Source of the DNA: a virus
Lineage: Duplodnaviria > Caudoviricetes
DNA: 64,000 bases
Reading direction: 5' to 3' (one strand)
Virus record (IMG/VR): IMGVR_UViG_2565956658_000004
Location: 39,937-103,936 of that record
The notes below the pieces were generated by a model, which was not told the origin of the DNA, made no database searches, and saw only the letters and a list, made by a program, of their open reading frames with translations. Below are positions 1,277-17,105 of this stretch, piece after piece (positions within the stretch are counted from its first letter, which is position 1; each line of letters opens with the position of its first letter). The position numbers were made by a program, and so were the translations under genes.

Positions 1277-1831
1277 ATGCTGATTAATCGAGAACGTGAA
1301 AAAATCATAAATTTGGTGGCTTATTTTGCAGATAATGTAAATTATCTTGGCAAAACAAAGTTATTCAAATTGCTTTATTTTGTTGATTTCGAACATTACA
1401 AATTGACTGGTCGTAGTGTTACTGGTTTAGATTATTATGCATGGAAAATGGGACCAGTTCCTACAATGTTGTTTGATGAAATAGAACGACCTGAGCCAGA
1501 CATGCAGGAAAAGGTAAAGGTGCAGCAAAAGACTTTACAGAATAATAAAAAGATGTTCTGCATTGAGGCTATTGCTCAGTTTGATAGTCGATTATTTACC
1601 AAAAGAGAATTACGACTTATAGGGGAATTTGCTCAAAAATATAAAGAAGCGAAAGCGGAAGACATGGTTGAAGCCACTCATTTGGAAAATCTACCATGGA
1701 GTAAAATCTATAACTCCCCAACAGGCAAGCAGAAAATAATTCCATATGAGTTGGCATTAAGAACTCAAGAGTTGGAAGAAATGAAAGCCTTTATAAGTGA
1801 AAGACAAGATTTTATTGGTTTGTTTAAATGA
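1277..1831 (+). CDS. Panacea (DUF4065/SocA-like) antitoxin
   Basis: GKTKLFKLLYFxD...TG..Y.AW.MGPV and ATH....PW motifs. Confidence 0.85.
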   Translation: MLINREREKIINLVAYFADNVNYLGKTKLFKLLYFVDFEHYKLTGRSVTGLDYYAWKMGPVPTMLFDEIERPEPDMQEKVKVQQKTLQNNKKMFCIEAIAQFDSRLFTKRELRLIGEFAQKYKEAKAEDMVEATHLENLPWSKIYNSPTGKQKIIPYELALRTQELEEMKAFISERQDFIGLFK

Positions 1832-2241
1832 ATGATGTAGGTTCGGTTTTTCTTCATAAAGAATTTGAGTTTGCTGATGGTGGAAAAGCACAAAAATTCT
1901 TTGTAGTTATTGGTAGGCATAATGGGGTTGTGATTGCTGCTAAAACAACTTCACAGCAACATGGGCGTGGGATTAGTTATGGCTGTCAACCTTCAGACAG
2001 ATTCCATAATTTTTATCTACCTACAGGTAGTTGTTACTTTGACAAGTGTACATGGGTTTGTCTTGATGAATTTTATGAGTTTTCGGACTCTGAGTTATTT
2101 AATGCAAGGTTTAGTGGCACGGTTCGATTTACTTGTACTCTTGATGCTGCACATATGAAAATATTACAGGACTGCGCAAAGGAGAGCGAAGACATAACAT
2201 CAATTCAGGAAAATATTATTAATAATAGCATTGTGCAATAA
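1828..2241 (+). CDS. Putative PemK/MazF-like toxin paired with the Panacea antitoxin
   Basis: F.F.DG...KFFVVIG...KTTSQ pattern; 4-bp overlap (ATGA) with the antitoxin gene. Confidence 0.6.
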   Translation: MNDVGSVFLHKEFEFADGGKAQKFFVVIGRHNGVVIAAKTTSQQHGRGISYGCQPSDRFHNFYLPTGSCYFDKCTWVCLDEFYEFSDSELFNARFSGTVRFTCTLDAAHMKILQDCAKESEDITSIQENIINNSIVQ

Positions 2242-2363
2242 AATTATTAATCATCTGCGTGATTAATAAGAATTGTTTAAAGAATGGTTCAAAACTTTGC
2301 ATGGAATGGAAATAGAGTTAAAATGAACAAAATATGCATATTTTTTAGACATAAGGTGGTTCA

Positions 2364-3101
2364 ATGGTAGCCCCGATACCGAAAACAAAAGCAGTCGAAT
2401 TGTTAGCGGAACTTTCTAGCTATGAGAGATTGCAAGTTGTCATGTCTGAATTTAATACAAATAAATTTTTAAGAGATATTAAAAAACTATTTGATAGTAA
2501 GGTAGACATTGCTAATTTGTGGATATGTAAAGGGTTTGTTTATTCTTTATCTAATCAACCTGAAGCGATGGTTGATGCTTTTAGAAATGCACAAAAATTA
2601 GGTGCAACTGATAAATACTCAATGTTCAACCAGGCTACACAATATATTCTTCATGGATATTATGAAAATGCCATCGAGGCATTAGTATTAAGTAAGGATG
2701 ATGTAGCCCAAGAACAGCTTGAAAGAATCGCTATCTCGACTTTTGATTATGATCAGATCGAACAGCATGACTTAAGTGTAGTGGCAAAAAATAATTTATT
2801 AAAAAGAAAATCAAGATTAGCTGAGCTAGGTATTGATATTAATGAGGCAAAGGTACTCATGAATGCTTTCTTTCAAATATTAAAAAGTCGTAAATGTAGG
2901 TTTGGTTTGGTACATCATGATACTAATCAAGACGAATATTATCTGCATTTTGAGGCTGTTACTGATATTGATATGACACATTCAGTTTTGAATGAGTTTG
3001 ACATTTATATTGCTGAGCATCCAGAGCTTTATAAAGTTAATTCTAAAATTAATATTGTACTCACGCCTATTTCATCAATTAGACATAATTCTGTAGCGTA
3101 A
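2364..3101 (+). CDS. Hypothetical TPR-like protein, partner of the downstream HEPN gene
   Basis: Helical-repeat pattern (W..KG.VY......EAM.DAF..A..L); 1 bp from the HEPN gene. Confidence 0.5.
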   Translation: MVAPIPKTKAVELLAELSSYERLQVVMSEFNTNKFLRDIKKLFDSKVDIANLWICKGFVYSLSNQPEAMVDAFRNAQKLGATDKYSMFNQATQYILHGYYENAIEALVLSKDDVAQEQLERIAISTFDYDQIEQHDLSVVAKNNLLKRKSRLAELGIDINEAKVLMNAFFQILKSRKCRFGLVHHDTNQDEYYLHFEAVTDIDMTHSVLNEFDIYIAEHPELYKVNSKINIVLTPISSIRHNSVA

Positions 3102-3102
3102 C

Positions 3103-3510
3103 ATGAGTTTTAAGCCACAACATAGACTGAGTTATGCTCTCGAGCTTTATGATTCTGAATTTTCAGGTGAGGTACATAATCGATGTATCATTCATCAAGC
3201 ATATTACGCAGCTTTGAATCAGGTTCAATACGAAATTGAGAATCGACTTTTTTTTATTGTTGATGATGAGGATCGCAAAAAGCAGTCACACAAGGCGTTT
3301 ATAGATGCCTGTGAAAATCAGTTGGGAAAATTGGTTGCTGGTGATGTCCGTAGACAATTGTTGGTCTCTATTGTCAATAACTTGCGTAGAGCAAAAAGAC
3401 TGCGAGAAACTGCTGATTACAGATTAGATTCAAATATTGATAAAACCAGTGCTCAGGTTGCATTAAGACATGCTCAGGAAATATTTGATACTCTAGAGCA
3501 ATTTGATTGA
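3103..3510 (+). CDS. HEPN-domain protein (putative RNase toxin)
   Basis: R....QAYYAA, SH..FI and R.TADY motifs. Confidence 0.8.
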   Translation: MSFKPQHRLSYALELYDSEFSGEVHNRCIIHQAYYAALNQVQYEIENRLFFIVDDEDRKKQSHKAFIDACENQLGKLVAGDVRRQLLVSIVNNLRRAKRLRETADYRLDSNIDKTSAQVALRHAQEIFDTLEQFD

Positions 3511-3570: not shown

Positions 3571-4386
3571 CTATTTGATTTGATTCATGACACTTTGCAC
3601 TTGTTCTTTAGTTAAAGGCTTCATTTTTTCATTCATACAAGCACTATAATCTTCAATAATCATATTTTCTTGTTTAGTAATTAATTCATCTTTTAGACAA
3701 CGATCCTTTTCACATTTACTGTTTCGCACTAGCTTCTTAAAATCATCATATCTTTTAGTATTCGCATTTTTGGTTTTTAAAATATTAAATAATTTCTCTG
3801 AGTAAGCTAAATATTTCTCTCTATTTCTAGGGTTTATAACTTGATCAGGGTCTTGTCCAATTAACGAATGTAATAGATGCCCAAACTTAGGTGCATATGC
3901 TCTTTCTTGCTTTGAATTTAATTCTCCATCAGTATGGGCATATGCATCCGCATATGCATGTATCAATAGCCCCGCTTTCCATATATCTTCAGGATCTTTT
4001 AGGTTGTTTTTTATTGCATTTTCTATAGATTTTCTTCTAGTTTTAATATCCTCACTATTGCCACCATGCAATGAGTGAAGTTTAGTTACTACATCGTTGG
4101 TAAATTCATTACTTGCAAAAGGAAACTTATTTTTAACTGCATTCACAATTGCATCGTATTTTTTATAAGCATCAGGATATTGTGAGAAATAAGTTAACGC
4201 CATTGTATCTGAGATGTTTCTTCCAGCTATTCTAGATACCATATAAGATGTAGTTGAGTGCCCCACGCTACTTGATTTATTAGTACTTGGAGCACATTCT
4301 ATTACTGCATCGAAAGGACTTAGTTCACCAGCAAAGGCCGTTGAACTAAAAAGCGATAACAAGCTAAGTAAAAGAACTTTTTTCAT
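3571..4386 (-). CDS. Secreted putative Zn-dependent hydrolase (phospholipase C/P1 nuclease-like)
   Basis: Signal peptide MKKVLLLSLLSLFSSTAFA; GH..T, SQYPD, LH.LH, HAYADAYAH and GH..DPD metal-ligand motifs. Confidence 0.5.
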   Translation of the reverse strand: MKKVLLLSLLSLFSSTAFAGELSPFDAVIECAPSTNKSSSVGHSTTSYMVSRIAGRNISDTMALTYFSQYPDAYKKYDAIVNAVKNKFPFASNEFTNDVVTKLHSLHGGNSEDIKTRRKSIENAIKNNLKDPEDIWKAGLLIHAYADAYAHTDGELNSKQERAYAPKFGHLLHSLIGQDPDQVINPRNREKYLAYSEKLFNILKTKNANTKRYDDFKKLVRNSKCEKDRCLKDELITKQENMIIEDYSACMNEKMKPLTKEQVQSVMNQIK

Positions 4387-4479
4387 TTTTATTCCCCTTA
4401 TGTATATAAAATTTAATAATAAACAGACATATGAGGGGAAAGTCAAACTTATTTTTCTGGCGCTTCTTTGCTTGCCTTA

Positions 4480-4567
4480 TTTCTAAATCATCTGTGAGAT
4501 GAACAACCATGGGTAAATCGCAATCGTATTCAACAAACTTTTCTAAATCATCTATGCGATGAACAAC
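4480..4567 (-). CRISPR. Type I-F mini-array 1 (2 repeats, one 32-nt spacer)
   Basis: Minus-strand 28-nt repeats GTTGTTCATCGCATAGATGATTTAGAAA (4540-4567) and GTTGTTCATCTCACAGATGATTTAGAAA (4480-4507) with TCATC/GATGA stem and TTTAGAAA handle; spacer 4508-4539 is exactly 32 nt. Confidence 0.9.
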
Positions 4568-4700
4568 TAGAGAAATCTAACAACAATCTCTCTAGCTTCA
4601 TTAAGATAGCACAACTTTTGCTGTGCCACCTTTTTTTTGTACAGGTGGTTAATTCATTGTTTTCAATGAAATTAATTTAGCGACCACTTGCAGGGTTTTT
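4568..4700 (-). promoter_or_regulatory. Leader/promoter of mini-array 1
   Basis: Extended -10 TGcTATCTT (4611-4603); AT-rich IHF-like AAACAATGAATTA; A-run-GG tract like those in I-F leaders. Confidence 0.5.
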
Positions 4701-4706
4701 TATCGA

Positions 4707-5591
4707 CTATTTGCCTCTAAAAAATTTTATCAATTCAGATTGTTTAAGGTGATAAGGGTAATCTTGCATTATCCTTGCATCTATTTCTTTAGTTCGTTCA
4801 ACTCCTAAAGTCAAACTAGCTGAAAATGCCCCATCAGAAAAATGACTTTGGATATCTGATGCCATTTTTGGATTGAGTAATCTGATCGAGTCTGAGTAAC
4901 AAATCCACCATCTAGAAACCCACATCATATGTAACGCTGTATTATTTGCATGGCTCTCAAAGTTTGGGCTCTTCGATTGATATTTTTTTTCTGCATTGCT
5001 ATACAGCGCAATCAAATGGTGAACATACTCAACTGCAACAGGAATTGATTCAAATGGGATTTCGTCAATGTGCTCAACATTGAAGCGCTGGTGAACAAGT
5101 TTATATGCATCGCTGTAACTTAAATGCTTGGTCTTAGCTACAAGCATGTTTACAGCATTGGTTAGCGGTTCTCGGTCAGATTTATGCGTTTTGGCTAAAA
5201 ATTCCTTACGGACAAAATAGCAATCTTCAAGCTGCTCGAATACTTCCCAAGCTTGGTCAGTGTCGAGCATTTTAGCGTGTCGTGCTGCACCGCGTTCTGT
5301 CCAGAGGGTCAACACACGTGTTTTGGATGAAATTTGTGTGTGAATATTATTCACGAGCAAATCATTTGTGAGTAGCTTTAAACTACTCACAAAATCTTTG
5401 AGTTCTTGGCCAGCAATTTTGAAGAAGTGTTTACCCTCAACAAAACGTTGTTTGTTGTTTGAAAAGTTTTTACGAATATTGTCTGTGTCGGTGCCATAGA
5501 AGCCGGAAAGCATTTCGGTAGTAATAACAGGAATGGATTTGAAGTTTATAATTGATACTTGCGTATCATTGATTTGTGCTAAACTTGCCAT
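4707..5591 (-). CDS. Phage antirepressor (ORF6N N-terminal domain plus P22 Ant-like C-terminal domain)
   Basis: PVITTE.L..FYG...I..NF..NK.RF.EGKHFF and LWTERGAARHAKMLDTDQAWEVFE.LEDCYF motifs; YKLVHQRFNVEHIDE. Confidence 0.9.
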   Translation of the reverse strand: MASLAQINDTQVSIINFKSIPVITTEMLSGFYGTDTDNIRKNFSNNKQRFVEGKHFFKIAGQELKDFVSSLKLLTNDLLVNNIHTQISSKTRVLTLWTERGAARHAKMLDTDQAWEVFEQLEDCYFVRKEFLAKTHKSDREPLTNAVNMLVAKTKHLSYSDAYKLVHQRFNVEHIDEIPFESIPVAVEYVHHLIALYSNAEKKYQSKSPNFESHANNTALHMMWVSRWWICYSDSIRLLNPKMASDIQSHFSDGAFSASLTLGVERTKEIDARIMQDYPYHLKQSELIKFFRGK

Positions 5592-5661
5592 GTCAGTTTT
5601 CCTTGTTCGGAAGTTGATAACTAGCCCCATAAATCTTGGTCGAGGAGTGGGGCTTTTTTTT
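5591..5661 (+). ncRNA. Putative sar-like antisense RNA against the antirepressor RBS
   Basis: Extended -10 TGcTAAACT (5577-5585) inside the first antirepressor codons; AGCCCCA...TGGGGCT-T7 terminator ending about 5661. Confidence 0.6.
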
Positions 5662-5725
5662 ATCCCCATTGGGGATGTATTTAATTTATAACCACAAAAA
5701 CCTATTGTCAATCCCCAATGGGGAT
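5662..5725. promoter_or_regulatory. Two 15-bp palindromic operators between ant and arc
   Basis: ATCCCCATTGGGGAT (5662-5676) and ATCCCCAATGGGGAT (5711-5725). Confidence 0.8.
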
Positions 5726-5770: not shown

Positions 5771-6133
5771 ATGGCTAGAAATCTTGATGTTGAATACAAG
5801 ATGCGTATGACGCAAGAGCTTAAGGAAAAGATTGTTGAATCAGCAAAATTTCATAACCGTTCTATGAATGCTGATATTGTTGCGAGAATTGAACAAAGTT
5901 TTGAGCCTGATTTTTTTAAAATAACAAAATTGAATGACTTAGAAGAACCCGCAGCCTCCATCGAAATTGGTGCTATAACAATTGGTTTGTATGAATCTCA
6001 ATACAAAGAGATCAAACTAACGCAACTAGGTCTTAATTATTGGCTCTTAAGTTACCATGCTGTTTTGTGTCATCTAAGAGATGAGAGTGCCAAGCAACTT
6101 ATTGAGCTGGGTTGTGCCTACACCACATTGTAA
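5771..6133 (+). CDS. Arc/Mnt-family ribbon-helix-helix repressor
   Basis: YKMRMTQELKEKI.E.AK..NRSMNADIVARIEQSF. Confidence 0.9.
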   Translation: MARNLDVEYKMRMTQELKEKIVESAKFHNRSMNADIVARIEQSFEPDFFKITKLNDLEEPAASIEIGAITIGLYESQYKEIKLTQLGLNYWLLSYHAVLCHLRDESAKQLIELGCAYTTL

Positions 6134-7313: not shown

Positions 7314-7453
7314 TTCCCCACCAAAAAATTTAATAATTATATAAAGTTACGATAGAGTATTTTTTAAACTTCTTCAATACACCCCTCTAAGGTTCGACCA
7401 TTTTCATTATAAAAATCATGATAGACGCATATTTTAGGAGTGCGTCATGTCTG

Positions 7454-7524
7454 AGAATCCTTTTGCTCAATTTGTTAAGCCACAAGAAAAGAAAGAAGAA
7501 AACCCTTTTGCTCAGTTTGTGCAA
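7454..7524. repeat. 71-bp inverted repeat, copy 2
   Basis: Encodes the N-terminal NPFAQFV repeats of the large virion protein. Confidence 0.95.
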
Positions 7525-10500
7525 AAAAGTCCTGAACAAGACAAAGAACAAGGCAAAGACTTTCTAGGTCATGCTCAAGATGCAGGTGCATCTTTAATGA
7601 AAGGTCTGGCGGCTGTGCCAGAAGCAATTGTTGGTCTAGCTGACATACCGACTGGTGGACGTGTTGGTAAATTTATTGAGCAAGATGTTGGTTTAGATTT
7701 AAAGGGAACAAAAGAATATTGGAACGATAAACATACCGACCAATACAAGGCCCAACAGAAACAGTTTGATCAAGCCGATGGAATTGTTGATAAAGCAAAA
7801 GTTGTTCTGACCAATCCGTCAATGATTGCAAATACGGTTGTTGAGTCCGCTCCATCAATGCTACTGGGTGGTGCAATTGGTCGTGGTTTAAGCTTGGCAA
7901 GTAAAGCTATTACCCCGATTGCTGGTGGTGCCATAGGTGAGGGTGCTGTCATGGCTGGGCAGCAGGTAGAAAATATACGTCAGCAAACTGATGATAAATT
8001 ATTGACACCTGAACAATCGGGCCTGTCTATTGCCACGGGTGCTTTAGGTTCATTGTTTGGCTATGCTGGTGGTACGATTGCCAAAAAGTTTGGCTTTGAC
8101 GATATTAATACTGCAATGGCATCAGGGCGATTAAACTCACAGCAGGTTGCTGGAGAAATTCAAAAAATACCATTAAAAAGTATCCCAAAATCCATTATTG
8201 GTGGTGCGATTACCGAGGGTTTACTGGAGGAATTGCCACAGTCTGTTTCCGAACAACTTTTACAGAATATTGCTTTAGATAAACCTCTGGATGAGGGGGT
8301 GGATTCTGCAATTGTTATGGGAACATTGGCAGGTATGGCAATGGGTGGCGGAATGAATACTTTTTCTGCCCCTAGTCATTATTTGCAGAATAGTAGGGCT
8401 TATAACGAACAGCAGGCTCTGGCAGCACAAGAAGAACAACGATTAGCTGCGGAATCACTGGCGCAAGAACAGCAGCAATTAACTCAACAACAGCAAAAGT
8501 TATTTGGTTTTGGCAAAGAACCTGATACATCGATGAATGTAGATGATGTATATGCGAAAACAGGTATTCCACCAAACCCTGTAATTGATGAAAGTAAATT
8601 ATTGCCTAATGCGCTCAGCTATGAAAATGGTATTGATTACCAGCCACCACAGATAAATAGTGGGCTGACATCTGGTAATGAAGTACCACCAAATGCTGAT
8701 GACATACCTTATGCACCACAGCAGATGCACGATACATGGTCTTTGGCTAATGAAGCACAGCAGGATTATGGGAACTCAATCGAGTTTGGTGCACCTGAAT
8801 CTAAATCCCGTAATTTAGAATCACAAATTCAGTTTAATGATACGTTTGGTCAAACTACACCTGATCCAGTGGTTGACTACAATGCATTGAGTCCATTTAG
8901 TAATGTACAGCAACCCTTTGTTGATCAGACAAAATTATCTGAGCGGTTAGGAATAAATCCGAATGCTGGCCCAATGTCATCAGCGGCAGCGTTAGCCGTA
9001 GACAGTGGTGCATCACCAATATTCCAGACACACCAGCCGTTGCCACAGAACAACAACCACAAACGTTATTAACTACACAGACTGAACCAGCACAAGAACC
9101 AGCCTCAAAGCCAACTTTTGCAAGTGACCATCCTACGGGTTCCGTCACCTATGCCCAGGACATTGCGAATCAGGCATTGCAACAGTATCAGGGAGATACA
9201 TCAGCTTTGACCAGTAAAGGTTCGTTTGGGCATAGTGCTGCAACTGAGTTGATCTATTCTAAAAATTCACCATCGTACAGTGACGTTCAGGTTGAGGATG
9301 CTGGAGACAAAGCCATTGTCAAGCTGACCAACGCAAGAACAGGTCTGGTTGAGGAGAGATCGTATCCACATGAGTTGGTACGTTTTAATCAATTTTTGGA
9401 TGGGGTAAGTCCTGATGTTTCACCAAATACCCAAGCGAATGATGTTGGCACGGGAACACCAACGCAGACAGATAGAACTATTTCGTCAAATACAAACGCA
9501 CGATTCAATAGTGAAACTCAGGCAACAGGCGCACATGAAGAATCAACGGGAGAAAACTTAAAATCCAATGCTGTAAATCCAATTCAAATTACATCAGAAA
9601 AAATCGCTCAACTGGAACAACAACTTTCAGAAACTAAGTCTGTTCCACAACGAAACCCTATTAAGCAGCAGATTGGTGAGTTAAATTCTCAACTGGAAAA
9701 TCAGGGACGTGCATCATGGGAAAATATGTCACCTGAACAGCGTCAGGCTGTGGTAGGGCAGATTGATACCAATATGCCTTTGGGAATGAAGAAGAGATTA
9801 CCTACAGCAGAATGGGACAGGATTGGCCCAGCAGTTAAGGAAAAGTTGATTGGAGTGATGGGACAGTCTTTTCAGCCATTTTCACAGATCGATACTAGTG
9901 CCCATGAAGCAGCAACAAGTCATTTAAACGATATACCTCAACCTACGCAAGCACAGATCGAAGCTGGTAACTATAAGAAAGGTCATGTACGAATACATGG
10001 TTTAGATATTTCGATTGAGAATCCAAAGGGTTCAACACGTTCGGGTACACGTCCAGATGGTACTGAATGGTCACACGATATGAGTGATCATTACGGTTAT
10101 ATAAAACGTACAAAAGGTGCGGATAATGAGCATATTGATACCTATATCGGTAATAACCCTGATTCAGACCAAGTTTATATTGTCGATCAATTAGATCAGC
10201 AAACGGGTAATTTTGACGAGCATAAAGTGATGCTTGGGTTTGATAATCAGGATGCAGCAACCAAGGCATATCAGTCCAATTTTGACAAAGGATGGAAAGT
10301 AGGCCCGATTCGTTCAATGAACATAGAGCAGTTTAAAGATTGGTTAAAGAATGAAGATACTTCAAAGCCTGTTGCGGATATTAAAATTTCTAATTCTAGT
10401 CAAAGTGCGTTATCTGAGCCAGTTGCACCAAAAAATATAAAAGAAGGCATTGAGAATATTCGCGCTGAACAAAATCGTCAAAAGGTTTTGGTTGATATGC

Positions 10501-11421
10501 ACAATAGTGTTTATGGCTTGGCATCGAATGAACAATTGCAAGAGTCGCTGAAACACTTAAATAAAGAAATCGTGAAAGCTCAAAAGCAAAGTGAGAACGA
10601 GGTTGTAAATGGAAAGCGTAGTACACGCAAGGCAGTTGCAGCAGGTGCTTTAGATCGATTTTTAAAAAATCGTGTAGATTTGGAAATGTATATCAAAGCA
10701 CGTAAGAATGGGGAGTTAAAGCAACGAAATAAAAAAATAGATGACTTTAGTAGAAACACTAAATTAACTCGTATGATCCAAATTCAATCTCAGTCAGAAA
10801 TTGACCAAATACATTTTATCCCAAGTCACCTGATGGATTCAGTGAATAGACTTGGAGATGTGGTCAATGATTTGGCATCGATGAGGACTGATAGCATCAA
10901 AACAAATCATGAATATGCTGTTAAATTGTTGAATGAGATTGTCAAGTCGAATCCAAATGTACTTGTACATATTGTTTCAGATTTGAATAGTATTGAAGAC
11001 ACCTCTATTCGAGCAAATTTAACAGCTGGTGGATTTTTTGTACCAGAACAAAATACTGTTTATATCTATCCTAGTTCTGAAGCGTGGAATAGTTCAGCGT
11101 TAGAGTTATTGAACCATGAGTTGGTACACTCTATTACTGAACAATATATTTCAAAAGGTCTAATGTCTCTTGAAGATATTGGTCATTTGGATAATTTTAT
11201 AAATATAATTAATGACTATCGAATTTTGAGTTATGAAAAGTTATCAGATGATGTTCGAGACAGGCTCGATTATGCAGTAACTACAAACCCTCATCATGAA
11301 ATTCTTTCTGTCGGGGTCGCAGAAACAGCAGTTCGTCAAGAATTGAAAAACATCATTGGTGAAGATGGTCTTCAGCAGTTATATAAAATATTCACGAATA
11401 TATCCATAAAGGAAAAGCAAT

Positions 11422-11628
11422 ATGAGCAACATGAACAAAGAGGAAATTCGGGAAGAAATTCGAAAGGAAACGATAAAGATGTATCAAAGTCTGCCAGTGG
11501 AATCTCAGAAAAAATTCAAAAAGGATTTGTCAAAGCTGAGTCAGACAATGGAATCAAACGAGATACGGGGAATCCGAGCGGAGATTTATCAGGAAATGAA
11601 AACTCTGAATATTCAAATACCCAATTAG
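11422..11628 (+). CDS. Possible overprinted small helical protein inside the polyvalent gene
   Basis: RBS-like AAGGA before ATG; amphipathic 68-aa sequence; the main frame here is low-complexity. Confidence 0.4.
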   Translation: MSNMNKEEIREEIRKETIKMYQSLPVESQKKFKKDLSKLSQTMESNEIRGIRAEIYQEMKTLNIQIPN

Positions 11629-14600
11629 AAGCGGATAACAATTTTGAATGGACTGAATCAATCAACAGGGTGTTTGGGATTTTCACTCAAAACAGAGCGA
11701 TTGAGCACATCATTTCTTTTTTTAATCATTTCAAAATGTCCACTACACAAGATGCTTCGATTAGTGGACGTATTAAGGTCACTTTGGGTAGGGCTAACCT
11801 CAACAATGTTGGTGATTTGGATACCGCGAGCTTTACGGTTCAAGTTGTTTCTAGTTTTAATAAGCTTCCTAAAATCATACAAGATAATGCCACTTATCAA
11901 GATGAAAACGGAGTAACCAACAATTATAGCGTAAGCGGTGTTTGGCATAATGACACGCTCTATATAGTCACTGATCAGATATATGGAAATATAGAACAAC
12001 AGCTTACTACATCTGATGCATATGAAGAATTATTAGCACATGAAGTTATAGGACATTTTGGTGTTCAGCAATTATTTGGTGATGAATATCAATCAAAGTT
12101 TCAGCAGTTATATAACGTACTTGGTGGAATAGATGGTATTCGGAACATAGCAAAAAATAATGGTGTCGATATGCAGCAATTTGAAAGTGCTTATATAGAC
12201 CCGTTTAAAAAAGGTGTAGAAGAAGGCTATTACAGTGCCCTGGATGCTCAACAAGCAGTTGTGGGAGAGTTATTCGCATTCATTGCACAGAACGCAGAAA
12301 CACGACCATTTGTGCGGCAAAAATTAAAAGAAGTCATTGGCTATATCCGTCAATGGTTTAGAGATCATGGGTTTAGCAAATTCTTATCACGCTACAACGA
12401 TGCTGATTTGATCATGTTTTTATCAGAAGCACGGAAAGCTGTTGTAGATCGTCGTTATTTTGGAAAATTTAAAGATCAGACTATTTCAACTAATAATAGC
12501 GATAAATTATTTAGCCGCGGTCAGTCTACAACCCGTACAGATACCACAGTAAAACAGGTACGAGATAAACTTGTTTCACGATTTGGTGAAGAAACGATTT
12601 CAAAACTGGAAATACAGGAGAAGTTAAATATTCTTGATACCTATGAAAAGGCAGGTGTTGAGGGTTTTTATCAAAGTGGCAAGGCAACTTTAATTGCAGA
12701 TGCCTTAACCAATGACACAATTATCCCAACATTTCTACATGAATTAGGTGGTCATGGGGGATTCCAGAATATGATGGATGCCAAACAGTACGATGATTTA
12801 ATGCATCAGTTTGATCGTCTAGTGGCACAGAACAACCCGATTGCACTTGAAGCTAAACGCCTTGCTGAACGGGAAACAGATCCAGAAGTACAGCATCTTG
12901 AAATGCTACCTTACTTACTGACCTTAGCATCCAATAACCAGATTAAAAATGCAGTTCATAAAGGTAATGTAAAACGCTTAATTTCGGATTTGAAATCCAA
13001 AATTAAGGCTTGGGTTTATGACCGTTTGGGGGTAAACCTAAATCTTGATACAAATGATATTGTTGCATTAGCTGAACGAATGATTGATAAAGGTACTACT
13101 AAGGCAGCTCAAAGCAATCAGCCTTTATATAGTCGCCAGCCTATTAATAGTGCAATTAACAGACTAAGCCAAAACATTAAACAAATGTCAGTTAAGTCAA
13201 TTAAGGACAAAACAGGTTATAAATGGACTGATTGGTTGGGGATAGGGCTATCTAGTTTAGGTCGTCGTCAGCTTACTGAAATTTATAGCAAAATTTTACC
13301 TCAACTCAACAAATATAATGAGCTTGCGGCACAAATGGATGCTGATAAAAATGATGCTGGTGCTGAAGCTGATAGTATCGTGCGTGAGTGGGCTAATCTA
13401 AAAGATGAAAATCAGCTTGCAGAATTGATGCACGATGCAACTTTAGCCAAGATTGACCCATCAAAACCGTATGTGAGTGGCGATAGCATTTCTAAATATA
13501 AGCAGTTGCGTGATGATTATAATTCATTATCGCCAGAAGCACAGGCAATGTATTTGAAAGCCCGTGATGCGTATAAAAAGCATTATGCGAAAGTCCATCA
13601 GGCGATTAAAGAGCGTATTTTACGTTCTGAATTAACCAATCATAAAAAAGCTGATTTGTTGAAACAGATGGATAACCAGTTTTTTGGTTATACAAAAGGG
13701 GTGTATTTTCCATTAGCACGCTTTGGTAAATATGTGGTCGTGATGCGTAACCAGAATGGTGATGTAGAATGTGTTAGCCGCGCCGAAACCATGGGAGAAG
13801 CACAAGCGTTACGTTCTGAACTTATGCAGAAATACCCTAATTTTAAGGTAGATCGAGTAATTCTTGATAAAGAGTTTAACGCATCTCGTGATGCCGTTGG
13901 TCGTGGGTTTATGACCAGTCTATTTGCAGAGGTAGATAATTTAGGTTTATCAACTGCGGAACAGGCTGAATTTGAAGATACCCTAAGCCAGCTTTATTTA
14001 TCTTCTATGCCCGATTTGAGTTGGGCGAAACACGGTATCCATCGTAAAGGTACGGCTGGATTTAGCCAAGATGCCCGTCGGGCATTTGCACAAAATATGT
14101 TTCATGGGGCTGGATACCTTGCAAAGTTACGCTATGGTGATCAACTTGCAGAGCAGCTTGATGATATGCAGAAATATGCAACAGAGCAGGGCAAACAGGA
14201 TGACACGTATGACCAGCCAACCGCCCAGCGTGTCATTGATGAGATGAATAAACGTCATGATTTATTGATGAATCCTAAATCTCATCCATTATCCAGCGGC
14301 TTAACAAGTCTAGGATTTATATATTATCTAGGTCTATCACCTGCGGCAGCAATGGTCAATTTATCGCAAACTACTTTGGTTGCTTATCCGATTATGGGTG
14401 CAAAATGGGGCTTTGATAAAGCAGCAACAGAACTGTTAAAAGCGTCAAATGATTTTAGAAAAGGTGTTGAGTTCCATAAAGTTAAATGGGAGGGAACTAA
14501 AACAGACTTATATAAAACCATAAGTGCTGATATTTCAAAATTTCTAAATAAGGATGAAAAACAGGCTTATGATAGTGCTGTGGCAAGTGGTGTAATTGAT

Positions 14601-15920
14601 GTGACACAAGCACATGATTTAGCTGGCATTGCTCAAGGTGAAGATAGCGGCATTATGTGGAAAACACGTCCAATTATGCGTGCAGCAAGTGTTATGTTCC
14701 ACAACGCAGAACGATTTAACCGTGAAGTGACCTTTATCGCTGCTTATCGTCTTGCACGTCAATCAGGTTCAAACCATGATGCAGCCTATACCCAAGCGGT
14801 AGATGCAACGTATAAGGGGCATTTCGATTATAGTTCTGGCAATCGCCCACGTATCATGCAAGGTAATGTGGCTAAAGTTCTTCTGTTGTTTAAACAGTTC
14901 GGTCAGAACATGATTTACACCTTGGCTCGTCAGACATATCAGTCAATAAAAGGTGAAACGGACGCACAGCGTAAAGAAGCCCGTAAGTCACTCGGTGCAA
15001 TTTTGGCAATGCACGCAACTTTTGCAGGTGTACTTGGTCTACCTGGTGTTTGGCTTATCATGGCTATTGCATCAGCATGGGGTGGAGATGATGACGAGCC
15101 ATGGGATGCAGAAGTGGCATTGCGTAATTATCTTGCTGAAGCATTCAACCCAACTATTTCAAATATGTTGATGAAAGGTGCACCACGTGGTGTTGGTATT
15201 GATCTGTCTGGTCGTGTTGGTATTAACAATCTTTTATTACCAGATGTACAAGAGGGATTAGAGGGTAAACGTTGGGCTGAATCTGCTATGGCTGGTGCAT
15301 TAGGACCAGTAGCAGGCATTGGTACAAATTTAATTAAAGGTGGTCAGGAGTTATCAGATGGGCATACATTGCGTGGTATGGAAACTATGCTACCTGTATT
15401 TCTGAAAAACTTTGCCAAGACCTATCGCTATGGTGATGAGGGTGTTCAAGACAAAACTGGTATATCCATTATGGATGAAGTCAGCTCTATGGATTTACTT
15501 GTTCAGGGTATGGGCTTCTCACCATCTGATGTGCGTACAGCGAATGAGGGTAAATCGGCAATTTACCAATTAAATCGAAAGCTAAACGAACGTCGTAGCC
15601 GATTAGTGACATTATGGTCACGAGCGAAAATGATGAATGATCAAAACGAAATGGATAAAATCTGGGAAGAAATCCAACAGTTTAATGAGAAAAATCCATC
15701 TCGACGTATTAATAGAATCAATCTAAACCAAAGCTATAAGAATCGGAAAAATCGTATTGATAAAGCTGAGGATGGTATTTATCTCAGTAGAAATCGCCAA
15801 GATGCCCGTGAAGCTGGTCGTTTTGCGTTTGGCGAGTAACCCTCTGTAAGCCTCGAATAAATATCCAAATTCAATAAAACTCTGCGTTAAGACGTGGGGT
15901 TTTTTTATTAGGTGAAAAAA

Positions 15921-16987: not shown

Positions 16988-17015
16988 TTGAAAAATAGTC
17001 ATGCTATGGTAGTTT
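16988..17015 (+). promoter_or_regulatory. Sigma70-like promoter of mini-array 2
   Basis: TTGAAA-16 nt-TAGTTT with TGn extension; predicted +1 about 17021-17022. Confidence 0.55.
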
Positions 17016-17017
17016 CT

Positions 17018-17105
17018 AATAACTACCATAAAGGTAGCTTAGAAAGTATTTCGGTCATATTTCACTGTACCGTTTACGTTAACTGTCGTATAGACAGCTT
17101 AATTT
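17018..17105 (+). CRISPR. Type I-F mini-array 2 (2 degenerate repeats, one 32-nt spacer)
   Basis: AATAACTACCATAAAGGTAGCTTAGAAA (17018-17045) and GTTAACTGTCGTATAGACAGCTTAATTT (17078-17105), each with an intact 5-bp stem and 5-nt loop; spacer 17046-17077 is 32 nt. Confidence 0.85.

What the first reader, a model, noticed from the sequence alone, without database searches (positions are those of the whole stretch)
4448..4700. Cas-less type I-F CRISPR mini-array 1 in the prophage
Seen: two 28-nt repeats with a Cas6f-type stem and a TTTAGAAA handle, flanking a 32-nt spacer (crRNA sense AGTTTGTTGAATACGATTGCGATTTACCCATG). A leader with an extended -10 lies upstream. About 32 nt follow the last repeat (TAAGGCAAGCAAAGAAGCGCCAGAAAAATAAG) and could be an orphan second guide. 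No cas genes occur in the window. From memory, the repeat closely resembles the Acinetobacter I-F repeat GTTCGTCATCGCATAGATGATTTAGAAA. Inference: the phage borrows host Cascade to attack competitors, to repress a promoter, or to act as an RNA anti-CRISPR. I saw no protospacer in the window by eye.
Basis: partly seen in the sequence, partly recalled or inferred. Interest (0 to 1): 0.8.

Follow-up and report, generated by a model that had tools for sequence, protein, structure and literature searches.

The report
Prophage-borne type I-F CRISPR mini-array
An Acinetobacter prophage carries a tiny CRISPR array with no cas genes, most likely to arm the host's own CRISPR machinery against rival phages; this trick is already known from other viruses, so it is a good new example and not a new principle.

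Summary
Window 4480-4567 (minus strand) holds two 28-nt type I-F repeats around one 32-nt spacer. These are the only two copies in the 103,936-bp provirus record. Cas6f, Csy3 and Cas1 were not found in that record.

The repeat differs at positions 4 and 5 only from the native repeat beside the cas genes of A. baylyi-type I-F loci. It differs at one position from a native intergenic array.

A 70-nt leader block is 58/70 identical to the leader of a three-repeat mini-array in an A. venetianus RAG-1 prophage. It includes a conserved TGnTAnnnT extended -10. In both prophages the array lies directly behind an anti-repressor gene.

RAG-1 has a cognate I-F system. Its first spacer matches Acinetobacter-phage-like viral contigs 31/32 with a 5'-CC PAM.

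A freshwater metagenome contig carries the window's spacer plus two more.

No target was found for the window's own spacer anywhere. No crRNA-mimic (Cracr-type) target was found in 60 Acinetobacter I-F loci.

Best reading (0.55): a canonical crRNA that uses host Cascade against rival elements. It is a new member of a known kind. The "orphan second guide" is not supported.

The parts
4540..4567 (-). Repeat 1 (leader-proximal), GTTGTTCATCGCATAGATGATTTAGAAA. Stem is T6-C10 paired with G16-A20, loop is GCATA, and the 8-nt handle is TTTAGAAA.
   Evidence: It differs from the native A. baylyi repeat at positions 4 and 5 only, and from a native intergenic array repeat (L057) at position 12 only.
4508..4539 (-). 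Spacer, 32 nt, crRNA sense AGTTTGTTGAATACGATTGCGATTTACCCATG.
   Evidence: No protospacer was found. A freshwater metagenome contig holds the same spacer.
4480..4507 (-). Repeat 2 (distal), GTTGTTCATCTCACAGATGATTTAGAAA. It has two substitutions, both in the loop; stem and handle are intact.
4568..4637 (-). Conserved leader block of 70 nt, 58/70 identical to the leader of the RAG-1 prophage mini-array. It is not detectably related to native array leaders.
   Evidence: z = 20.6 against the RAG-1 leader (0 of 2000 shuffles reach the score), z about 0 against native leaders. Sequences.
4603..4611 (-). Extended -10-like element TGCTATCTT, 35 nt upstream of repeat 1 (RAG-1 has TGCTACCTT at the same distance). 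A second element found in the window only, TGTTAGATT, lies at 4582-4574.
   Evidence: It was not called by the two-hexamer scan, and promoter activity is not shown.
4605..4638 (.). Conserved 11-bp hairpin (4605-4615 paired with 4620-4630). On the + strand it is followed by eight T (4631-4638), so it looks like an intrinsic terminator for antisense transcription. On the - strand it overlaps the -10-like element.
   Evidence: (terminator-like site on the + strand). It is kept in RAG-1 through paired changes (sequences, read by eye).
4448..4479 (-). This is flank, not part of the module.
   Evidence: No third repeat or hairpin follows (10/28 matches). It is unrelated to the flank of the RAG-1 array. 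Only chance-level matches were found elsewhere.
4707..5711 (-). Anti-repressor gene (ORF6N/BRO, phrog_2127) directly upstream on the same strand. No minus-strand terminator was found between it and the array.
   Evidence: The RAG-1 array has the same arrangement: a phrog_2127 gene at L012 611-1558 and the array at 1684-1831.
3571..4386 (-). Downstream gene on the same strand, 271 aa. A signal-peptide-like N-terminus was read by eye and not tested. There is a weak DUF6765 match. The gene is not linked to the array in its one relative.

Best explanation
This is a genuine, phage-carried type I-F CRISPR mini-array that relies on the host's Cas proteins.

Proposed mechanism, with each step marked:
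- The minus strand is transcribed from the conserved extended -10 in the leader and/or by read-through from the anti-repressor gene (inferred).
- Host Cas6f cuts at the 3' base of each repeat hairpin. This yields one 60-nt crRNA: an 8-nt UUUAGAAA 5' handle, the 32-nt spacer, and a 20-nt 3' hairpin taken from the distal repeat (inferred from established I-F biology and from the near-identity of the repeat to native host repeats).
- The crRNA is loaded into the A. baylyi-type I-F Cascade of the lysogen. With Cas2/3, Cascade destroys incoming DNA that carries 5'-CC followed by the protospacer (inferred).
- The beneficiary is the prophage: rival phages or other mobile elements are excluded from its host.

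What is shown: the array anatomy, the match to native repeats, a leader-plus-repeat module shared by two different prophages with different spacers, and an interference-grade phage target (31/32 with CC PAM) for the sister array, whose host has a cognate system.

What is not shown: expression, processing, the target of the window's own spacer, and whether this prophage's own host has an I-F system.
For: Anatomy:
- Canonical 28/32/28 layout with a 60-nt period. The stems are intact and the only repeat changes are in the loop of the distal copy.

Match to host systems:
- The repeat differs at 2 of 28 positions (4 and 5, outside stem and handle) from the repeat next to cas6f-cas1 in A. baylyi (99 copies). 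It differs at 1 of 28 from a native array between cas2/3 and cas8f.
- A. baylyi-type cas8f is found in 20 of 247 Acinetobacter species genomes.

Shared module:
- The 70-nt leader is 58/70 identical to that of a 3-repeat, 2-spacer array in an A. venetianus RAG-1 prophage. In 2000 shuffles none reached this score.
- In both prophages the array is directly downstream of a phrog_2127 anti-repressor gene.
- The spacers differ completely between the two arrays.

Sister array:
- RAG-1 has Cas6f and a cas8f 74% identical to the A. baylyi one. Its native repeat differs from the mini-array repeat at 3 positions.
- RAG-1 spacer 1 matches L065 and L066 at 31/32, and 13 sites match with 3 or fewer mismatches. 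Every such site is directly preceded by CC.
- L066 resembles Acinetobacter phages: 52 of 62 matching records.
- RAG-1 itself has no second copy of that sequence.

Variation in a relative:
- A 726-nt freshwater metagenome contig (X8) is anchored in both flanks. It holds the window's spacer at the distal position plus two further 32-nt units towards the leader.

Literature:
- The kind is established. Viral mini-arrays have repeats like the host's and spacers that mostly target related viruses. This was validated for archaeal viruses (passages of PMC11656645).
Against: - No protospacer was found for the window's spacer in any of these: INPHARED phages (15 weak records, best E 0.9); PLSDB plasmids; IMG/VR; JGI metagenomes (one hit, 21/32, no CC PAM, an unrelated gene); 247 Acinetobacter genomes (0 of 247 at 3 or fewer mismatches over 32 nt or over the first 24 nt); its own provirus.
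- The host genome of this provirus is not available, so a cognate I-F system in the actual lysogen is not shown. Only 20 of 247 species genomes have that type.
- The distal repeat, which supplies the Cas6f hairpin of the single crRNA, has a loop (TCACA) whose first base differs from the native repeat variants listed, which begin with G. The effect on Cas6f is unknown.
- In the X8 contig the leader-proximal spacer is a gapped variant of the window's spacer (longest common subsequence 29 of 32, shuffle mean 19.7, maximum 24). One internal repeat also carries the distal-type loop. This looks more like cassette duplication or recombination, or two guides for variants of one site, than stepwise acquisition. 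It is reminiscent of Cracr arrays.
- RAG-1 spacer 2 and the three spacers of L004 have no hits.
- Expression is not shown. The one 'RNA?' contig over 4363-4583 comes from a library whose RNA nature is only a guess.
Confidence: 0.55

Rival explanations
1. Cracr-type or regulatory crRNA-like RNA. The guide pairs only partially with a host promoter (cas, creT or another defence gene). Host Cascade binds there without cutting, which silences host immunity or a CRISPR-guarding toxin. The RNA also competes with host crRNAs for Cas proteins.
For: - Such elements are described in phages and prophages, including ones aimed at Acinetobacter I-F loci (Liu et al., bioRxiv 10.1101/2024.10.29.618823: abstract, passages and section 7 read; Shmakov et al., bioRxiv 10.1101/2023.03.03.530964: passages).
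- Native regulatory mini-arrays with CC-flanked partial targets do sit between cas2/3 and cas8f in the A. baylyi-type loci examined here.
- The X8 relative carries two related guides, as Cracr arrays do for variants of one target.
- No full protospacer exists in any collection searched.
- The same prophage has a second cassette with degenerate repeats at 16988-17105.
Against: - 3.1 kb upstream of cas8f in 20 A. baylyi-type loci, and 2.25 kb upstream of csy1 in 40 PF09611-type loci, were scanned for CC plus an unbroken PAM-proximal run of matches (every sixth position ignored).
- The best results were one run of 9 (L062) and one run of 10 at the same homologous site in two genomes (L074, L092). 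That site lies more than 1 kb upstream of csy1 and is judged to fall inside cas2/3 coding sequence. By my estimate these are about chance level.
- The spacer shares no start with the three native guide sequences read.
- The spacer is the canonical 32 nt, whereas the paper reports shorter spacers for I-F Cracrs.
- The repeats are near-perfect, not degenerate.
- The sister array's spacer is a 31/32 phage match.
- No acr gene is evident beside the array, but AcrIF24 was not specifically searched.
Confidence: 0.2
2. Inert passenger. A piece of CRISPR array was picked up by recombination and is now carried without function, either because the host lacks a cognate system or because the single crRNA has no living target.
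For: - Only one spacer, and no target anywhere.
- The distal repeat is mutated at two loop positions.
- The host's cas status is unknown, and only 20 of 247 species genomes have the matching I-F type.
- The module is rare: apart from the window's own record, the exact repeat pattern was found in 5 IMG/VR contigs, of which only 2 look like phage-borne mini-arrays.
Against: - Leader, promoter-like element, hairpin and repeats are conserved between two different prophages while the spacers differ.
- The stems and handles of both repeats are intact.
- Relatives in metagenomes keep the module with more or other spacers.
- The sister array has a live-looking target and a cognate host system.
Confidence: 0.15
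3. Decoy. The transcript acts mainly by soaking up Cas6f and Cas7f (Racr-like) or by diluting host crRNAs. This would protect the prophage or its lytic progeny from host I-F immunity whatever the spacer is.
For: - Racrs are repeat mimics in prophages that bind Cas6f and Cas7f (Camara-Wilpert et al. 2023, PMC10651486: abstract and passages).
- Liu et al. report competition with host crRNAs as part of the Cracr action (abstract).
- The repeat would be a good Cas6f substrate by its likeness to native repeats.
Against: - Racrs are solitary repeat units, and the inhibitory product lies upstream of the cut. In that paper, adding a repeat and a spacer turned RacrIF1 into a functional crRNA.
- This element is a complete repeat-spacer-repeat unit with a canonical spacer, so it should give a normal Cascade complex and not an aberrant one.
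- Spacer turnover among relatives is not expected for a pure decoy.
Confidence: 0.05

Closest known systems
Virus-borne CRISPR mini-arrays used in inter-virus conflicts (review PMC11656645, passages read; Medvedeva et al. 2019, PMC6858448, seen as a search listing and start of abstract only)
   Same: One or two spacers, no cas genes, carried by a virus, and repeats like those of host arrays. In the sister RAG-1 array a spacer is aimed at another phage of the same host genus.
   Different: The validated case is from archaeal viruses. Here the system is a bacterial A. baylyi-type I-F. The module has its own conserved leader that is unrelated to native leaders, and it sits behind an anti-repressor gene. 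The window's own spacer has no known target.
Cracr RNAs and prophage regulatory mini-arrays (Liu et al., bioRxiv 10.1101/2024.10.29.618823; Shmakov et al., bioRxiv 10.1101/2023.03.03.530964), which mimic host CreR/CreA (Acinetobacter I-F CreTA, Wang et al. 2023, PMC10097628, passages)
   Same: A prophage-borne I-F repeat-spacer-repeat unit in Acinetobacter that depends on host Cas6f and Cascade. A metagenomic relative has two related guides.
   Different: - Canonical 32-nt spacer and near-perfect repeats, not short guides and degenerate repeats.
- No partial target was found in 60 I-F loci.
- The sister array has a near-perfect phage protospacer.
- No acr neighbour was seen.
Racr RNA anti-CRISPRs, solitary repeat units (Camara-Wilpert et al. 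2023, PMC10651486)
   Same: A Cas6f-type hairpin in a prophage, outside any cas locus, behind a promoter-like element.
   Different: There are two repeats with a full spacer, so a normal 60-nt crRNA is expected. The base pair at the foot of the stem is T6-A20, as in the native Acinetobacter repeats. It is not the C6-G20 pair of the Pectobacterium system studied there.
Native A. baylyi-type I-F arrays of Acinetobacter
   Same: Repeat identical at 26-27 of 28 positions, 32-nt spacers, and CTCTA directly before the first repeat.
   Different: No adjacent cas genes, only two repeats, and a leader not detectably homologous to native leaders (z about 0). It is located in a prophage accessory region.

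Membership tests
Type I-F CRISPR array | 28-nt repeat with a 5-bp stem, 5-nt loop and 8-nt 3' handle; 32-nt spacers; 60-nt period | tested here: met
Type I-F CRISPR array | Repeat matches repeats that flank I-F cas genes in the same genus | tested here: met
   It differs at positions 4 and 5 from the repeat next to cas6f-cas1 in A. baylyi, and at position 12 from the L057 intergenic array.
Type I-F CRISPR array | cas genes adjacent or in the same record | tested here: not met
   Cas6f, Csy3 and Cas1 gave 0 matches in the 103,936-bp record. It is therefore an orphan array. The host chromosome was not available.
Type I-F CRISPR array | Leader homologous to native leaders | tested here: not met
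   Global alignment against two native leaders gave z about 0 (1046 and 1712 of 2000 shuffles reached the score). Only the last 5 nt (CTCTA) are shared.
Type I-F CRISPR array | Cas6f-processed 60-nt crRNA | not testable with these tools
   The only runs available were contigs. One contig from a library guessed to be RNA covers 4363-4583.
Viral mini-array for inter-virus competition | Carried by a virus, one or two spacers, no cas | tested here: met
   IMG/VR provirus record, phage genes around the array, one spacer.
Viral mini-array for inter-virus competition | Host has a CRISPR-Cas system with the same repeat | tested here: inconclusive
   The window's host genome was not available. This feature is met for the sister array: RAG-1 has Cas6f and cas8f, and its native repeat is 3 nt different.
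Viral mini-array for inter-virus competition | Spacer matches another virus with the right PAM | tested here: inconclusive
   The window's spacer has no match in six collections. The sister array's spacer 1 matches 31/32 with CC in L065 and L066.
Cracr / regulatory crRNA-like RNA | [quoted passage not shown] | tested here: not met
   60 loci were scanned. The best results were a run of 9 and a run of 10 (the latter at one homologous site in two genomes), judged to lie inside cas2/3 coding sequence and not at promoters. Targets elsewhere in the host were covered only by the 24-nt, 3-or-fewer-mismatch search (0 of 247).
Cracr / regulatory crRNA-like RNA | Degenerate repeats and, for I-F, a shortened guide | tested here: not met
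   Repeats are 28/28 and 26/28 against the module consensus, and the spacer is 32 nt. The criterion is taken from passages of the preprint.
Cracr / regulatory crRNA-like RNA | Linkage to acr genes such as acrIF24 | not tested
   The neighbours are an anti-repressor and a 271-aa protein of unknown function. No search with an AcrIF24 sequence was made.
Racr (solitary repeat unit) | A single repeat-like unit without a canonical spacer and second repeat | tested here: not met
   Two repeats flank a 32-nt spacer.

The most novel reading that the evidence does not exclude
The conserved block (hairpin, extended -10, 35-nt leader and I-F repeat) may be a small portable 'spacer platform'. It would move between unrelated Acinetobacter prophages into the slot behind their anti-repressor genes. 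It would let a prophage use both the host's interference machinery and its adaptation or recombination machinery to keep its own private list of rivals up to date. That list could include paired guides for allelic variants of one target site, as in the metagenomic relative.
Probability: 0.25. Interest if true: 0.6.

Novelty: new member of a known kind. Interest (0 to 1): 0.4.

Why it matters
The finding adds a clean bacterial example to the known class of phage-borne CRISPR mini-arrays. The example has a defined host system (A. baylyi-type I-F) and a sister array with a host and a target in hand.

It is easy to test. A. baylyi is naturally transformable and carries the cognate system. The module could be put into it and challenged with a CC-flanked protospacer.

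It also gives a contrast within one prophage. There is a canonical mini-array at 4480-4567 and a cassette with degenerate repeats at 16988-17105. This pair could help separate 'use the host's CRISPR' from 'silence the host's CRISPR' strategies.

For phage work on Acinetobacter, such arrays are a hidden source of phage resistance in lysogens.

Tried and rejected
Targets of the window's spacer, all negative:
- INPHARED phages: 15 records, best E 0.9, none from Acinetobacter.
- PLSDB plasmids, with the whole array plus flank as query. Hits were repeat matches to Acinetobacter plasmid arrays, plus 25/28 matches (E = 4) of the flank to Escherichia and Salmonella plasmids, which I take as chance.
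- IMG/VR: the full spacer with every sixth base free and the first 23 nt with three free positions, 0 matches each.
- JGI metagenomes: one hit, 21/32, preceded by AC and not CC, inside an unrelated open frame. This is about the number expected by chance for 20 fixed bases, by my estimate.
- 247 Acinetobacter species genomes: 0 matches at 3 or fewer mismatches over 32 nt and over the first 24 nt.
- Four named genomes.
- Its own provirus, ungapped (best 21/32; shuffles mean 20.7) and gapped (score 16; shuffles mean 14.9, maximum 17).

Other negatives:
- The 27 letters of the extra X8 spacer: 0 matches in IMG/VR.
- RAG-1 spacer 2: only its own array.
- The RAG-1 array against isolated phages gave only a 29/32 match in a Curvibacter phage (E 0.01), plus one lesser match in a Ralstonia phage. 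I take the Curvibacter match to be in the same kind of 18-bp-repeat gene.
- The L004 array against phages: nothing.
- 566 native spacers from the loci held, against the provirus: none at 26/32 or better.
- The leader against 247 genomes: 26 genomes with short matches of 19-52 nt only. The search was too insensitive even to recover RAG-1.
- The relative of the downstream 271-aa protein (37% identity, L026) has no array.
- Rfam at a permissive threshold: 10 weak matches, none to a CRISPR repeat family.
- My first impression from the MAFFT alignment, that the prophage leader derives from the native leader, was rejected by the shuffle test.
- A resemblance between the leader and the A. baylyi regulatory target site (note) has no CC PAM and was dropped.
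- L005/L006, L007 and L008 in IMG/VR are large arrays. L005 and L008 have native-type leaders. I set all four aside as host arrays inside provirus calls.
- Reads: no cover in parts of X13, X14 and X15 is not evidence of anything. The 'RNA?' runs are guesses.
- One script failed because of unsupported blastn scoring settings and returned nothing. It was replaced.

Supplementary tables that may list this very element could not be seen. These are Table S10 of Shmakov et al. and Tables S2 and S3 of Liu et al.
Full report
**What is there**

On the minus strand of the window there are two 28-nt direct repeats, at 4540-4567 and 4480-4507, 60 nt apart. They flank a 32-nt spacer at 4508-4539. The leader-proximal copy reads GTTGTTCATCGCATAGATGATTTAGAAA. 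The distal copy differs at two positions, both in the loop.

Allowing three mismatches, the repeat occurs twice in the window and never in 100 shuffles. It occurs twice in the whole record, and a scan at up to seven mismatches also found only these two. Each repeat is predicted to fold into a 5-6 bp stem followed by the 8-nt TTTAGAAA handle.

The record is an IMG/VR provirus of 103,936 bases, and the window is its last 64,000. Cas6f, Csy3 and Cas1 profiles find nothing in the record.

**Whose repeat it is**

A scan of one genome per prokaryote species found the repeat pattern only in Acinetobacter, in 10 stretches from 8 assemblies. In A. baylyi DSM 14961 the repeat GTTCGTCATCGCATAGATGATTTAGAAA occurs 99 times in the stretch held. 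It starts about 1 kb downstream of cas6f, behind cas1.

The prophage repeat differs from it only at positions 4 and 5. Those positions lie 5' of the stem. The stem, loop and handle are identical.

These loci have cas2/3 divergent from cas8f-cas5f-cas7f-cas6f-cas1 (gene names by size and order, with Cas6f by Pfam). In some of them a second array lies between cas2/3 and cas8f. Its repeat begins GTTGTT or GTTATT and is one base away from the prophage repeat. The prophage repeat therefore lies within the natural variation of one Acinetobacter I-F lineage.

That lineage's cas8f is present in 20 of 247 species genomes. The other lineage, detected with Pfam Csy1, is present in 49 of 247. In the one genome of that lineage whose array was read (Acinetobacter sp. 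A47) the stem is different.

**Context**

The array lies in the gap between two minus-strand genes. Upstream is an ORF6N/BRO anti-repressor at 4707-5711 (Pfam E 7e-19; phrog_2127 E 1e-67). Downstream is a 271-aa protein at 3571-4386; its N-terminus looks like a signal peptide by eye. An Arc-like gene is divergent from the anti-repressor. The wider region holds accessory genes, including a Panacea-domain protein and a weak HEPN match.

No minus-strand terminator-like site was found between the anti-repressor gene and the array, or between the array and the next gene. The DNA of the array region has no counterpart in 50,697 phage records. Only the anti-repressor gene matches, mostly Acinetobacter phages among the best hits.

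**A shared module**

In IMG/VR the repeat pattern occurs in six stretches on five contigs.

- Three of the contigs carry large arrays, and two of the stretches (L005, L008) have native-type leaders. I set these aside as host arrays swept into provirus calls.
- Two contigs carry mini-arrays among phage genes.
- One is L003, which is the same DNA as L012 from A. venetianus RAG-1. It has three perfect copies of exactly the window's repeat and two 32-nt spacers unrelated to the window's.
- The 70 nt before its first repeat are 58/70 identical to the window's (z = 20.6; 0 of 2000 shuffles reach the score). Neither leader is detectably related to native leaders (z about 0).
- The shared block contains an 11-bp hairpin that is kept through paired changes. 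It also contains an extended -10-like TGCTATCTT (TGCTACCTT in RAG-1), 35 nt before the first repeat in both. Upstream of the block, and downstream of the last repeat, the two loci are unrelated.
- In both loci the array follows a phrog_2127 anti-repressor gene on the same strand. The RAG-1 locus also has a baseplate gene and an Hdf-like gene nearby.
- The second contig, L004, has four degenerate repeats, three spacers and a different leader. It lies between a regulator/anti-repressor pair and a tape-measure gene.

**Does the family have targets and a host system?**

RAG-1 has Cas6f (E 1e-25) and a cas8f 74% identical to that of A. baylyi. Its native array repeat is three bases away from the mini-array repeat, with the same stem and handle.

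The first 20 nt of RAG-1 spacer 1 occur in two further IMG/VR contigs. Extended to full length, the match is 31/32 in each, with the one mismatch at position 31. L065 has 4 sites and L066 has 9 sites with three or fewer mismatches. Every one is directly preceded by CC, the I-F PAM (PAM as stated in PMC10097628).

The sites lie in an 18-bp-periodic gene next to a Sak4-like gene. Of the 62 phage records that match L066, 52 are Acinetobacter phages. RAG-1 has no copy of the sequence other than the spacer. This is what an interference-competent guide against a rival phage looks like.

RAG-1 spacer 2 and the L004 spacers have no matches.

**The window's own spacer**

Nothing was found. The searches covered isolated phages, plasmids, IMG/VR with relaxed patterns and 247 Acinetobacter genomes. 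They also covered JGI metagenomes (one chance-like 21/32 hit without PAM) and the provirus itself, ungapped and gapped.

**Relatives in sequencing runs**

The stretch 4300-4800, or part of it, is held by 20 listed runs from 12 studies. Four were laid.

- X14, a wastewater run, has contigs identical to the window on either side of a stretch without cover (about 4272-4499).
- X8, a freshwater run, has a 726-nt contig (depth 5.5). It lies on 4205-4571, then has 27 other letters, then lies again on 4479-4808. This means flank, repeat, the window's spacer, repeat, a new 32-nt unit, repeat, another 32-nt unit, repeat, leader. The window's spacer is thus retained at the distal end of a four-repeat array.
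- Two details temper the simple reading of spacer acquisition at the leader end. First, the leader-proximal unit aligns to the window's spacer with six single-base gaps and no mismatch. Rebuilt from that edit list, its longest common subsequence with the spacer is 29 of 32 (shuffle mean 19.7, maximum 24 of 3000), so it is a related guide. Second, the internal repeat next to it carries the same loop variant as the window's distal repeat, which suggests duplication or recombination of a whole cassette.
- X13 has a contig with a 91%-identical leader and first repeat that continues into 162 letters not on the window.
- A 237-nt contig of X15 covers 4363-4583. The library is only guessed to be RNA and the contig is a strand-switching chimera, so it says little.

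**Testing the anti-CRISPR regulator reading**

Recent work describes phage mini-arrays whose guides imitate host regulatory guides and make Cascade repress cas or toxin promoters. I therefore looked for such targets.

Native regulatory mini-arrays do exist in these loci. In A. baylyi, A. calcoaceticus and RAG-1 a pair of degenerate repeats between cas2/3 and cas8f encloses a guide. The PAM-proximal part of that guide matches a nearby CC-flanked site. This agrees with the published Acinetobacter CreTA.

The window's spacer shares no start with these three guides. Two sets of loci were scanned for CC plus an unbroken PAM-proximal run of matches, ignoring every sixth base:
- 20 A. baylyi-type loci, 3.1 kb upstream of cas8f each. 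Best result: one run of 9.
- 40 loci of the other lineage, 2.25 kb each. Best result: one run of 10 at a homologous site in two genomes, more than 1 kb upstream of csy1.

I judged both to lie within cas2/3 coding sequence, and I estimate them to be about chance level. The canonical spacer length and near-perfect repeats also argue against this class. The related pair of guides in X8 and the lack of any full target argue for it.

**The 'orphan second guide'**

The 32 nt after the distal repeat are followed by 28 nt that match the repeat at 10 positions and have no stem. The flank is not shared with the RAG-1 array. Its only outside matches are chance-level. It is ordinary flank.

**Verdict**

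The element is a real, cas-less, phage-borne type I-F mini-array, and it belongs to a small module family shared by at least two Acinetobacter prophages.

- Most likely (0.55): it supplies one canonical crRNA to the host's Cascade to exclude a rival element.
- Live alternatives: a regulator or anti-CRISPR role (0.2), or no current function (0.15).
- A pure decoy role is least likely (0.05).

The kind is known, and the scan has noted crRNA-mimic arrays in prophages of other genomes. I file it as a new member of a known kind, with moderate interest.

Supplementary tables that might already list this element could not be read.

Noticed in passing
window 16988-17105 (+ strand): A second CRISPR-like cassette from another repeat family. 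It has a repeat-like stem CTACC/GGTAG with a CTTAGAAA handle, a 32-nt guide, then GTTAACTGTCGTATAGACAGCTTAATTT. Both repeats are degenerate, which is the look of a crRNA-mimic (Cracr/CreA-like) gene. Its guide found no CC-flanked seed in 60 Acinetobacter I-F loci, and its first 20 nt are absent from IMG/VR.
   Followed up: partly
L023 about 11020-11200 (A. baylyi), L025 (A. calcoaceticus), L024 10531-10615 (RAG-1): Native regulatory mini-arrays between cas2/3 and cas8f. Each has two degenerate repeats and a guide whose PAM-proximal part matches a nearby CC-flanked site upstream of a hairpin and a small open frame. They look like CreTA or CreR modules as published for Acinetobacter. In some genomes a long array takes the same place (L048, L057), in line with a passage of Shmakov et al..
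   Followed up: partly
L066 3393-4217 (-) and L065 about 5935-6092: A phage gene built of many 18-bp (hexapeptide-like) tandem units. One spacer therefore finds 4 to 9 near-identical CC-flanked protospacers in one gene. A Curvibacter phage has a similar repeat gene annotated as an acyltransferase.
   Followed up: partly
window 4605-4638: The conserved leader hairpin is followed by eight T on the + strand, so it looks like an intrinsic terminator facing into the array from the antisense side. It may insulate the array from antisense transcription.
   Followed up: no
window 1277-3510: Accessory genes next to the array region: a SocA/Panacea-domain protein (E 5e-22), followed by three small open frames, one of which has a weak HEPN match. 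This may be a toxin-antitoxin or defence island inside the prophage.
   Followed up: no
window 7447-15839: A 541-aa protein and a 2220-aa protein follow the anti-repressor region. The 541-aa protein matches the N-terminal part of giant phage proteins (phrog_30335, E 6e-143; weaker matches to virion RNA polymerase and DarB-like families).
   Followed up: no
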